UHGV virus genome: UHGV-0287696
Length of the DNA stretch: 64,000 nt
Origin: a virus
Strand: one strand, 5' to 3'
The notes beneath the pieces were generated by a model. The model ran no database searches, was not told where the DNA came from, and worked only from the letters and a program-made list of their open reading frames with translations. A program made the translations under genes and the position numbers. How positions within the stretch are numbered: position 1 is the stretch's first letter; each line of letters begins with the position of its first letter. Positions 36,735-36,791 of the stretch are shown here, one piece after another.

Positions 36735-36760
36735 CACGTATCCTTAAAATAAAAAAGAAT

Positions 36761-36791
36761 GGAGGACTACGCCCATAAGCATAGTTCCTCC
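36761..36791 (-). terminator. stem-loop with downstream U-run on the minus strand (attenuator/terminator)
   Basis: ggaggactacgcccataagcatagttcctcc with an A-run at 36745-36756 on the plus strand (U-run on the minus transcript); lies between the 401-aa fibre-like gene and Cys-rich peptide A. Confidence 0.5.

What the first reader, a model, noticed from the sequence alone, without database searches (positions are those of the whole stretch)
36745..36791. Minus-strand stem-loop plus U-run separating the 401-aa fibre gene from the Cys-rich peptide genes
A GC-rich inverted repeat (ggagga...tcctcc) followed on the minus transcript by a U-run sits exactly between the structural gene and peptide A. 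It could attenuate read-through to set stoichiometry or mark the 3' end of the fibre transcript, with the peptide/radical-SAM module separately controlled.
Basis: seen in the sequence. Interest (0 to 1): 0.45.

Follow-up and report, generated by a model that had tools for sequence, protein, structure and literature searches.

The report
Terminator hairpin with built-in promoter
The stem-loop plus U-run after the 401-aa fibre gene of this SPN3US-like giant phage is real and is kept by compensatory mutations across at least five phage genera; it looks like an ordinary transcription terminator, but its loop carries the start-site motif of a phage-polymerase promoter for the next operon.

Summary
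Observation confirmed. On the minus strand, 36791-36761 forms a 13-bp hairpin (GGAGGA-a-CTATGCT / TATG loop / GGCGTAG-TCCTCC). It folds at about -20 kcal/mol (z -4 to -5) and is followed by a U-run (36759-36746), then the ribosome-binding site and ATG (36734) of Cys-rich peptide A. It is one of 23 such hairpin+T-tail sites in the window, against 0-3 in shuffles.

The window is an uncultured relative of Salmonella phage SPN3US, which is phiKZ-like and carries its own multisubunit RNA polymerases. The hairpin sits at the same place in 14 distinct versions from at least five genera. The stems differ (13 of 17 pairs changed on both sides), and G·U pairs point to the sense strand.

Unexpectedly, the loop TATG and a TTAC exactly 15 nt upstream never change. 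TTAC-N15-TATG occurs 23 times in the SPN3US genome, against 1-6 for any other spacing, and mostly in non-coding DNA. It is also conserved upstream of the SbcC-like gene in 12 genomes. It matches the phiKZ middle (TTAC) and late (TATG, G=+1) promoter elements.

Best reading: a terminator for fibre transcripts, overlapped by a promoter that starts in the loop. No RNA data exist, so termination and initiation are inferred. This is an ordinary kind of element in an unusual compact arrangement.

The parts
36802..38007 (-). 401-aa fibre-like virion structural gene. Its stop codon TAA is at 36804-36802.
   Evidence: ORF list. It is 77% aa identical to SPN3US 'virion structural protein'. It matches phrog_2163 at E 9e-104 and has coiled-coil Pfam hits.
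36793..36796 (-). TTAC upstream element, at predicted position -22 to -19 of a phage-RNAP promoter.
   Evidence: The AC is invariant in 15 relatives (TTAC in most, TAAC or AAAC in some). It always lies 15 nt (16 in Wellingtonvirus) before TATG. It matches the phiKZ middle-promoter motif AAanTTACc at about -24 (PMC4666361).
36778..36791 (-). 5' arm of the hairpin (GGAGGA, bulged A 36785, CTATGCT). It also forms the 15-nt promoter spacer together with A36792.
   Evidence: Folding. Compensatory changes occur at 14 of 18 arm positions.
36774..36777 (-). Loop TATG. G36774 is the predicted transcription start.
   Evidence: TATG is invariant in all 14 distinct versions although the stems differ. In phiKZ late promoters TATG is the motif and G is +1 (PMC4666361, PMC12809450). 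The start site here is inferred, not mapped.
36761..36773 (-). 3' arm of the hairpin (GGCGTAG, TCCTCC).
   Evidence: The metagenome relative L042 has a clean C-G to T-A swap relative to the window.
36746..36759 (-). U/T-run (TTCTTTTTTATTTT). It is read as the terminator U-tract, and it would also form the U-rich 5' leader of a transcript started at G36774.
   Evidence: It is strong in the window clade, Seoulvirus and Erskinevirus, weaker in Machinavirus, and poor in Wellingtonvirus and Derbicusvirus.
36741..36745 (-). Shine-Dalgarno AAGGA of Cys-rich peptide A.
   Evidence: AAGG is invariant in alignment A1.
36339..36734 (-). Cys-rich peptide A gene (start ATG 36734), the first gene of the downstream operon. 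That operon holds three Cys-rich peptides, a 299-aa protein, two radical-SAM enzymes, a 190-aa protein and a DUF4376 protein, and runs to the bidirectional terminator at 31197-31227.
43254..43286 (-). Upstream comparison terminator, between the 1401-aa and 1727-aa fibre genes of the same block. Its stems covary but its loop is not conserved, and no promoter motif follows it.
62468..62490 (+). Second TTAC-N15-TATG site. It lies just after a terminator hairpin and T-run, 10 nt before the SbcC-like gene.
   Evidence: It is conserved, with a variable spacer, in 11 related genomes. The gene matches phrog_77.
4242..4264 (+). Third TTAC-N15-TATG site. It lies just after terminator 4207-4230, 36 nt before the gene at 4300.
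   Evidence: It is conserved in 4 relatives although the spacer changes.

Best explanation
The 64-nt spacer between the fibre gene and peptide A carries two overlapping transcription signals for the phage's own RNA polymerase.

(1) Terminator. RNA made from upstream, in the fibre operon, contains the whole 13-bp hairpin followed by the U-run. It can therefore end here, or be attenuated and gain a protected 3' end, as at the other hairpin+U sites that follow most transcription units in this genome.

(2) Promoter. The DNA also reads TTAC-N15-TATG, a promoter of the phiKZ middle/late type. The 5' arm of the hairpin is the promoter spacer and the loop is the TATG start-site motif. RNA started at G36774 contains only the 3' arm, so it cannot form the hairpin. 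It would run through the U-run, now a U-rich leader, into the Cys-rich peptide/radical-SAM operon. The downstream module would thus be insulated from fibre transcription and driven separately.

Shown: the hairpin, its stability and its position; structure-preserving evolution biased to the sense strand; the invariance and fixed spacing of TTAC and TATG; and the spacing-specific, non-coding distribution of that motif. Inferred: that the phage polymerase stops here, that it starts at the G, the efficiencies of both, and the timing class.
For: Hairpin and U-run.

Class enrichment and position: 23 sites against 0-3 in shuffles, 19 of 23 intergenic, and this one begins 10 nt after the stop codon.

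Conservation: the hairpin is present at the same place in Seoulvirus, Erskinevirus, Machinavirus, Wellingtonvirus, Derbicusvirus and uncultured relatives. Folding energies are -14 to -26 kcal/mol, with 0/200 shuffles as good in 8 of the 10 versions folded.

Compensatory evolution: 14 of 18 5'-arm positions show two pair types that differ on both sides. On pseudo-alignment A4, 13 of 17 pairs changed on both sides, and the covariation score is 0.555 against 0.189 +/- 0.024 in shuffles (0/500), with 53 doubly changed cells against 17. Within the window's own clade, L042 carries a C-G to T-A swap.

Sense-strand signal: G·U pairs occur in 11 of 13 lineages, and the sense strand folds better than the antisense in 11 of 13.

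Promoter: AC and TATG are invariant in alignment A1, whereas the loop of the neighbouring terminator 43286-43254 varies freely. In the SPN3US genome TTAC-N15-TATG occurs 23 times against 1-6 for each spacing from N9 to N22 (Poisson P about 2e-10). Fourteen of the 23 lie outside ORFs of 100 aa or more, against 0-1 for other spacings. In the window, 3 of 4 hits are intergenic and gene-sense. The motif is conserved with a free spacer upstream of the SbcC-like gene in 12 genomes at 50-99% aa identity.

Literature: in phiKZ the late promoter is TATG with G=+1, and middle promoters have AAanTTACc at about -24, some with TATG as well (PMC4666361). nvRNAP (the non-virion RNA polymerase) binds TATG on the non-template strand (PMC12809450). 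phiKZ and 201phi2-1 use more than 130 mapped termination sites each, many of them hairpin plus U/TTAT (PMC10914365, PMC11512511). SPN3US encodes multisubunit RNA polymerases (PMC7598289).
Against: No RNA 5' or 3' ends have been mapped for any SPN3US-like phage in the literature searched, so both functions rest on analogy.

In Wellingtonvirus and Derbicusvirus the T-run is weak or absent, and the Derbicusvirus hairpin is only marginally better than shuffles (z -2.7 and -1.7). The terminator half may therefore not be universal.

Erskinevirus has AAAC and Derbicusvirus TAAC in place of TTAC.

In the window alone, N15 is not numerically enriched (4 hits, against 5 each for N14 and N18).

Purified phiKZ nvRNAP did not transcribe middle promoters in vitro (PMC7598289), so how TTAC is recognised is unknown.

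The 100% pairing in A4 is by construction, because each partner was placed using that sequence's own fold. Only the shuffle and slide controls carry weight there.

The phiKZ terminator sequence motif is absent from the window.
Confidence: 0.55

Rival explanations
1. It is a plain intrinsic terminator or attenuator of the fibre operon and nothing more. The downstream peptide/radical-SAM genes would be expressed only by read-through, and the conserved TATG and TTAC would be incidental, for example loop or flank preferences.
For: The hairpin and U-run are typical of the 23-member class in the window. The neighbouring terminator 43286-43254 has no promoter motif after it, yet two fibre genes follow it, so read-through of such hairpins must occur in this block. 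N15 is not enriched within the window itself.
Against: Terminator loops are free to vary: the control terminator's loop differs in every clade. Here TATG is invariant while the loop size changes (ATG, TATG, TATAT, TATGC). UAUG is not a known stabilising tetraloop (own knowledge). The TTAC-to-TATG distance stays at 15-16 nt even though the pairing register slides. The same motif is spacing-specific and non-coding across SPN3US and is conserved without any hairpin upstream of the SbcC-like gene.
Confidence: 0.2
2. It is an mRNA 3'-end stability or processing hairpin. It would block 3'-to-5' exonucleases, or mark an RNase cut, on the fibre mRNA without itself stopping the polymerase.
For: The structure is conserved on the sense strand. 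The hairpin is kept in Derbicusvirus and Wellingtonvirus where the U-run has decayed. Many mapped phiKZ-type termination sites are stable structures that are not predicted to be intrinsic terminators (PMC10914365, PMC11512511).
Against: A strong U-run abuts the stem in most lineages, including the window. This reading does not explain the invariant TATG and TTAC. It cannot be separated from termination by sequence alone.
Confidence: 0.1
3. The inverted repeat is part of the promoter itself. A hairpin or cruciform in the non-template DNA strand would present TATG single-stranded to the phage polymerase, in analogy with the hairpin promoters of phage N4 virion RNA polymerase. On this reading the U-run is only a leader.
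For: The phiKZ nvRNAP binds the TATG of the non-template strand only after strand opening, and the determinants of opening are unknown (PMC12809450). The non-template strand has the same sequence as the RNA, so the G·T bias fits. The hairpin persists where the U-run is lost. As single-stranded DNA it still folds at -8.9 kcal/mol, z -5.6. A second SPN3US site (record position 72,661) has TTAC followed by a hairpin with TATG in its loop and no T-run.
Against: Only 4 of 23 SPN3US TTAC-N15-TATG sites have TATG in a hairpin loop with dG <= -10, against 61 of 600 random TATG sites. The conserved SbcC-like and gene-4300 promoters have unconserved, mostly unstructured spacers. A hairpin is therefore not a general requirement.
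Confidence: 0.08
4. It is a translational element for peptide A: a U-rich enhancer, a structure that modulates the ribosome-binding site, or a short leader ORF starting at the loop AUG.
For: The U-run lies directly upstream of the Shine-Dalgarno sequence. The loop contains AUG, and in the window AGGAGG lies 10 nt before it.
Against: The putative leader peptides are not conserved (MGVVLHSFLF, MDIVRSFYFL..., MAESSFLFL...), and the SD-like stem sequence is absent in SPN3US and Wellington. The hairpin does not include the real Shine-Dalgarno sequence. The weak second helix is not conserved.
Confidence: 0.04

Closest known systems
Intrinsic (factor-independent) terminators of phiKZ-like jumbo phages, mapped by ONT-cappable-seq in phiKZ (133 termination sites, 61 of them sharing one hairpin+TTAT motif; PMC10914365) and in 201phi2-1 (132 sites, 8 validated in vivo; PMC11512511).
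   Same: It is a stable stem-loop followed by a T-rich tract, placed in the intergenic spacer just after a stop codon. Many such sites occur per genome, and the phage transcribes with its own multisubunit RNA polymerases.
   Different: The phiKZ consensus BCCYCCCCHWWDGGGRRGGBYTTATKYYGT is absent from the window (0 matches with 3 mismatches allowed). The purine-rich arm is 5' here, not 3'. No 3' ends have been mapped in this phage group. The loop is sequence-constrained, which is not a terminator property.
phiKZ non-virion RNA polymerase promoters: late promoters have TATG with G=+1; middle promoters have AAanTTACc centred at about -24, and some also have TATG (PMC4666361, PMC7598289, PMC12809450).
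   Same: TATG is invariant, and TTAC lies at -22 to -19 when counted from the G. The motif sits 10-100 nt upstream of genes and tRNAs. It precedes a DNA-metabolism gene (SbcC-like), as expected for a middle class.
   Different: The spacing is 15 nt here, against about 16 in the one phiKZ example I read (P62M region). Both elements are combined and sharply spaced, whereas the phiKZ motifs are described as weak. No start sites have been mapped for SPN3US-like phages. Here the promoter spacer doubles as a terminator arm.
Overlapping or coupled terminator-promoter pairs in bacteria and phages. Coupling of initiation and termination sites of adjacent genes is reported in a 2026 bioRxiv preprint, of which I saw only the listing.
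   Same: The end of one transcription unit and the start of the next share a few tens of bases.
   Different: In the usual layout, which the window also shows at 4207-4264 and 62426-62490, the promoter follows the terminator. Here the start site lies inside the terminator loop, so the two RNAs differ in whether they can fold.
Hairpin promoters of phage N4 virion RNA polymerase (own knowledge).
   Same: An inverted repeat is centred near the start region of a phage-polymerase promoter, and the recognition element is single-stranded.
   Different: N4 uses a single-subunit polymerase, a short 5-7 bp stem with a 3-nt loop upstream of the start, and needs supercoiling and SSB. Here the hairpin is not shared by the other sites with the motif.

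Membership tests
Intrinsic (factor-independent) transcription terminator | A stable G+C-containing stem-loop in the transcript. | tested here: met
   13 bp, -19.7 to -21.4 kcal/mol, z -4.1 to -5.05.
Intrinsic (factor-independent) transcription terminator | A U-tract immediately 3' of the stem. | tested here: met
   AUUCUUUUUUAUUUU starts 0-1 nt after the stem. It is kept in most relatives, but is weak in Wellingtonvirus and nearly absent in Derbicusvirus.
Intrinsic (factor-independent) transcription terminator | Located at the end of a transcription unit, on the sense strand. | tested here: met
   The stem begins 10 nt after the stop codon of the 401-aa gene. Of the 23 sites of this class, 15 lie within 40 nt after a same-strand stop.
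Intrinsic (factor-independent) transcription terminator | The structure, rather than the sequence, is conserved. | tested here: met
   13 of 17 pairs changed on both sides, and no shuffle out of 500 reached the observed covariation.
Intrinsic (factor-independent) transcription terminator | RNA 3' ends map in the U-tract, and termination occurs without factors. | not testable with these tools
   No transcript-end data for SPN3US-like phages were found.
phiKZ conserved terminator motif (PMC10914365) | A match to BCCYCCCCHWWDGGGRRGGBYTTATKYYGT. | tested here: not met
   0 matches in the window with up to 3 mismatches.
phiKZ-type nvRNAP promoter (late/middle) | TATG at the start site. | tested here: met
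   TATG is invariant in 14 distinct versions.
phiKZ-type nvRNAP promoter (late/middle) | An upstream A/T-rich TTAC element near -24 (middle class). | tested here: met
   TTAC lies at -22 to -19 with fixed N15/N16 spacing in all lineages, although it reads AAAC or TAAC in two genera.
phiKZ-type nvRNAP promoter (late/middle) | The motif recurs upstream of other genes, in the gene-sense orientation. | tested here: met
   In SPN3US, 23 hits at N15 against 1-6 at other spacings, with 14 outside ORFs. The motif is conserved upstream of the SbcC-like gene in 12 genomes. In the window, 3 of 4 hits are intergenic.
phiKZ-type nvRNAP promoter (late/middle) | A primary 5' end at the G, and transcription by the phage polymerase. 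| not testable with these tools
   No data. Purified phiKZ nvRNAP does not use middle promoters in vitro (PMC7598289).
Any curated RNA family (Rfam 15) | A covariance-model match. | tested here: not met
   No hit at E <= 1 in 35500-38200.

The most novel reading that the evidence does not exclude
The element may be a self-insulating terminator-promoter cassette for a non-canonical phage RNA polymerase. The promoter spacer is the 5' arm of the terminator and the start site is its loop. Incoming transcripts would then fold and stop, while locally started transcripts could not fold and would go on. The hairpin survives in genera where the U-tract has decayed, and a second TTAC-hairpin-TATG site without a T-run exists in SPN3US. 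This leaves open that the hairpin also helps initiation by exposing TATG on the non-template strand, or that these polymerases terminate without a U-tract.
Probability: 0.45. Interest if true: 0.55.

Novelty: new variant of a known kind. Interest (0 to 1): 0.38.

Why it matters
By itself this is one more terminator in a phage genome that is full of them. Two things go beyond that.

First, following the invariant loop led to a sharply spaced motif, (A/T-rich)TTAC-N15-TATG. It marks non-coding regions upstream of genes and tRNAs in SPN3US and its relatives. [quoted passage not shown] The motif therefore gives a testable promoter map.

Second, the overlap of start site and terminator loop, kept for the whole divergence of at least five genera, is a compact way to uncouple two adjacent operons. 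It predicts that the Cys-rich peptide/radical-SAM module is transcribed from a middle-type promoter, independently of the late fibre genes it follows. This bears on when and why that unexplained module is made.

Tried and rejected
- Megablast of 35500-38200 against phage records found nothing. Protein-level searches were needed to identify the phage.
- Rfam gave no family.
- The built-in terminator scan missed the site because of the bulge. My first permissive scan was too noisy, so I tightened it and calibrated it on shuffles.
- MAFFT plus RNAalifold on the 13 versions gave zero consensus pairs, because the pairing register slides by 1-3 nt between clades. I replaced it with a table anchored on the TATG distance and a pseudo-alignment with N as placeholder. 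Its 100% pairing is by construction, so only the shuffle and slide controls are meaningful.
- A leader-peptide reading of the loop AUG is rejected: the peptides are not conserved and the SD-like stem sequence is absent in several genera.
- The idea that TATG-in-loop is a general feature of terminators here is rejected. Only this site has TATG as its loop, and one other (10164-10200) has it at the loop edge, among the 23 sites.
- The idea that a hairpin is a general feature of the promoters is rejected: 4 of 23 sites against 61 of 600 controls.
- The phiKZ terminator consensus gave no match.
- A search for relatives of the gene before hairpin 10164-10200 found only one near-identical contig, so conservation of that second case could not be tested.
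- The metagenome scan added only one new hairpin variant.
- Two papers could not be opened: Ceyssens 2014 (PMC4178840) and the 2026 promoter-terminator coupling preprint.
- No publication on SPN3US promoters, or on its radical-SAM/Cys-rich genes, was found.

Full report
**What is there.** Read on the minus strand, the 401-aa gene ends with TAA at 36804-36802. The sequence then runs TTTA-TTAC-A, followed by GGAGGA a CTATGCT [TATG] GGCGTAG TCCTCC (36791-36761). After that come A-TTCTTTTTTATTTT (to 36746), AAGGA (36745-36741), six bases, and ATG (36734), which opens the first Cys-rich peptide gene.

As RNA it folds at -21.4 kcal/mol in a 75-nt context (z -4.1) and at -19.7 kcal/mol in 51 nt (z -5.05, 0/200 shuffles). 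The complementary strand folds less well (-14.8). The coordinates and description in the finding are correct.

**Is it more than chance?** The tool's strict terminator scan did not list it because of the bulge. A bulge-tolerant scan of my own finds 23 hairpin+T-tail sites in the window, against 0-3 in six dinucleotide shuffles. Of these, 19 are intergenic, although only about 10% of the window is intergenic. Fifteen lie within 40 nt after a same-strand stop codon, and this one begins 10 nt after its stop (its table gives 11 for this distance). It is therefore a typical member of a real, abundant class.

**What genome is this?**
- There is no nucleotide-level match in the phage collection.
- The 401-aa protein is 77% identical to a virion structural protein of Salmonella phage SPN3US, and full-length homologues occur in the Erwinia and Salmonella jumbo phages of the phiKZ-like group.
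- Near-identical contigs exist only in metagenomes.
- The gene order is the same in SPN3US, Asesino, Wellington, Caitlin, Phobos and others: large fibre genes, the 401-aa gene, three Cys-rich peptides, a 299-aa protein, two radical-SAM enzymes, a 190-aa protein and a DUF4376 protein.
- SPN3US carries several RNA-polymerase beta-like genes. phiKZ-like phages transcribe with their own virion and non-virion multisubunit polymerases (PMC7598289).

**Conservation of the hairpin.** I extracted the spacer after the 401-aa homologue from 28 loci, which gave 14 distinct versions. Every one folds into a hairpin at the same place, with energies of -14 to -26 kcal/mol. In eight of the ten versions folded, 0/200 shuffles did as well. 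The two Derbicusvirus versions are weaker, at z -2.7 and -1.7.

The stems have different sequences: GGAGGA.., CGAGCCGG.., GAGGACC.., CACGGGCC.., CAGGGTG... A sequence-only alignment gives no consensus structure, because the pairing register slides by a few bases between clades.

I therefore anchored the 5' arm by its distance to the invariant TATG. On that basis, 14 of 18 arm positions show two Watson-Crick pair types that differ on both sides. I also built a pseudo-alignment in which each 3' partner is placed opposite its 5' base. This makes 100% pairing automatic, so only the controls count:
- 13 of 17 pairs have changes on both sides.
- 53 cells are doubly changed, against 17 ± 3 in shuffles.
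- The covariation score is 0.555 against 0.189 ± 0.024 (0/500 shuffles), and it collapses to 0.07-0.11 when partners are slid by 1-3 columns.

A relative at 95% aa identity (L042) differs from the window by one clean C-G to T-A exchange. G·U pairs occur in 11 of 13 lineages, and the sense strand is the more stable one in 11 of 13. Selection therefore acts on the transcript, or on the identical non-template strand, and not on a double-stranded palindrome.

**The unexpected part.** In the plain alignment, the invariant columns are the Shine-Dalgarno sequence, the start codon, one G in the 5' arm, the loop TATG, and an AC just before the stem (TTAC in most lineages, TAAC or AAAC in two genera). 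TTAC lies exactly 15 nt (16 in Wellingtonvirus) before TATG in every lineage. This holds even though the loop is ATG, TATG, TATAT or TATGC. Terminator loops are not expected to be constrained: at the neighbouring terminator 43286-43254 the stems covary but the loop is different in every clade and holds no TATG.

For phiKZ, late promoters are defined by TATG with the G as +1. Middle promoters carry AAanTTACc centred near -24, and some have TATG as well (PMC4666361). The non-virion polymerase binds the TATG of the non-template strand (PMC12809450).

I tested whether TTAC-N15-TATG behaves as a signal in this phage group.
- **(i) Window.** Three of its four occurrences are intergenic and gene-sense: this site, 4242-4264 and 62468-62490. 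The latter two lie directly after a terminator hairpin and T-run.
- **(ii) Conservation at a second gene.** Upstream of the SbcC-like gene (phrog_77), 12 genomes at 50-99% protein identity all have hairpin, T-run, TTTAC, 15-16 unconserved bases, then TATG. The same holds for the gene at 4300 in four relatives.
- **(iii) Whole-genome census.** Across 235 kb of SPN3US the motif occurs 23 times at N15, against 1-6 times at every other spacing from N9 to N22 (Poisson P about 2e-10). Fourteen of the 23 lie outside ORFs of 100 aa or more, against 0-1 for the other spacings. Most are 10-100 nt upstream of an annotated same-strand gene or tRNA (with the annotation).

This is the behaviour of a promoter. 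The link to a DNA-metabolism gene and to tRNAs fits the middle class reported for 201phi2-1 (PMC11512511).

**Most likely mechanism.** Two signals overlap in 64 nt. Transcripts coming from the fibre genes contain both arms and the U-run, so they can terminate. Mapped termination sites in phiKZ (133) and 201phi2-1 (132) are largely of this hairpin type, and eight were shown to work in vivo (PMC10914365, PMC11512511). Transcripts started at G36774, in the loop, contain only the 3' arm. They cannot form the hairpin and would continue through a 40-nt U-rich leader into the tightly packed operon that runs to the bidirectional terminator at 31197-31227. Termination, initiation, their efficiencies and the temporal class are all inferred.

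The layout differs from the usual one in this genome, where the terminator comes first and the promoter follows (4207-4264, 62426-62490).

**Rivals.**
- **Plain terminator (0.2).** This reading does not explain the invariant, fixed-distance TTAC and TATG. It is, however, supported by the fact that read-through must occur at the promoter-less terminator 43286-43254, because two fibre genes follow it.
- **Stability or processing hairpin without termination (0.1).** This fits the loss of the U-run in Wellingtonvirus and Derbicusvirus, but it leaves the motif unexplained.
- **Hairpin as part of the promoter (0.08).** This is attractive because the polymerase needs single-stranded TATG, and because a second SPN3US site (record position 72,661) has TTAC, a hairpin with TATG in its loop, and no T-run. 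However, only 4 of 23 motif sites have such a hairpin, against 61 of 600 random TATG sites, and the conserved SbcC-like promoter has a free spacer.
- **Leader peptide or translational element (0.04).** This is rejected on lack of conservation.

**Comparison with known systems.** The element works like an intrinsic terminator and meets every sequence-level criterion, but it does not carry the phiKZ terminator consensus and matches no Rfam family. The overlapping motif meets the sequence criteria of phiKZ nvRNAP middle/late promoters, with a 1-nt shorter spacing than the one phiKZ example I inspected. Membership in either class cannot be settled without RNA end mapping. I found nothing published on promoters of SPN3US-like phages.

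**Verdict.** The kind of element is ordinary. The arrangement, with the start site inside the terminator loop and conserved over at least five genera, is unusual but unproven, as is the sharply spaced promoter motif it revealed. Interest is moderate (0.38).

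Noticed in passing
window 31251-36734 (minus strand): The operon after the hairpin encodes three paralogous Cys-rich peptides (phrog_6085). Each has a conserved N-terminal leader-like part and a shared CGG(S/T)CSW(T/S)CS core, and the two 132-aa ones continue into long CxxxC-type repeats. Then come a 299-aa unknown (phrog_8030) and two radical-SAM enzymes; the 440-aa one is closest to PapB ranthipeptide and CXXX-repeat peptide maturases, but below cut-off. A 190-aa unknown and a DUF4376 protein follow. Peptide B just reaches the TIGR04114 'Cys-rich repeat' cut-off (20.4 against 20 bits). It looks like a phage-borne RiPP-like module sitting among tail-fibre genes, and no literature was found on it.
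   Followed up: partly
L001 8270-9310 (SPN3US), L002 8270-9320 (Asesino), L012 (SPAsTU): GenBank and RefSeq records annotate the three Cys-rich peptide genes poorly. SPN3US lists only part of one. Asesino has overlapping ORFs in wrong frames or on the wrong strand. SPAsTU lists none.
   Followed up: partly
window 43254-43322 (minus strand): Two tandem hairpins lie between the 1401-aa and 1727-aa fibre genes. The first overlaps the TAG stop, and the second (43286-43254) has a T-run. No TATG or TTAC motif follows, so the 1727-aa and 401-aa genes seem to depend on read-through or on an unrecognised promoter.
   Followed up: partly
window 18791-18805, 22594-22608, 54651-54665, 58939-58953 (plus strand): TCAGATATATATTAC occurs four times (0.16 expected). 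All are intergenic or near gene starts. It resembles the phiKZ early-promoter sequence GAGATnTATATTAC seen upstream of early genes in L037, so these are likely virion-polymerase early promoters.
   Followed up: partly
SPN3US record NC_027402.1 about 72,640-72,680 (L056): This is a second case of TTAC followed by a strong hairpin (-18.1 kcal/mol) with TATG in its loop. It lies about 250 nt after the major head protein gene and 77 nt before gp190, and no T-run follows it.
   Followed up: no
window 10164-10200 (plus strand): A strong terminator-type hairpin (-23.9 kcal/mol) has TATG at the junction of its loop and 3' arm. The GTG ORF call at 10196 starts inside it and is probably wrong. Only one near-identical relative was found, so conservation could not be tested.
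   Followed up: partly
window 5267-5299 and 4207-4230 (plus strand): Two terminator hairpins have nearly the same sequence (CCCTCTCTCCGTYTGGAGAGAGGG). The second lies inside the listed ORF 5209-5811, which suggests that ORF's start is mis-called.
   Followed up: no
window 20182-20205, 25420-25443, 61258-61281 (plus strand): A 24-nt translation-initiation region, TTTACCTAAAGGAGTATTAAAATG, is repeated almost exactly before three unrelated genes (0 expected by chance).
   Followed up: no
window 35572-35720 (minus strand): A non-coding spacer of about 150 nt separates Cys-rich peptide C from the 299-aa gene, where SPN3US has only about 37 nt. Its content is unexplained. The 299-aa gene probably starts at ATG 35571 rather than at the listed TTG 35583.
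   Followed up: no
window 51858-51927: The 69-nt divergent spacer between the 1440-aa fibre gene (minus strand) and a 420-aa gene (plus strand) holds two TATG motifs on opposite strands, a few bases apart (51895-51892 minus, 51897-51900 plus), without TTAC. They may be back-to-back late promoters.
   Followed up: no
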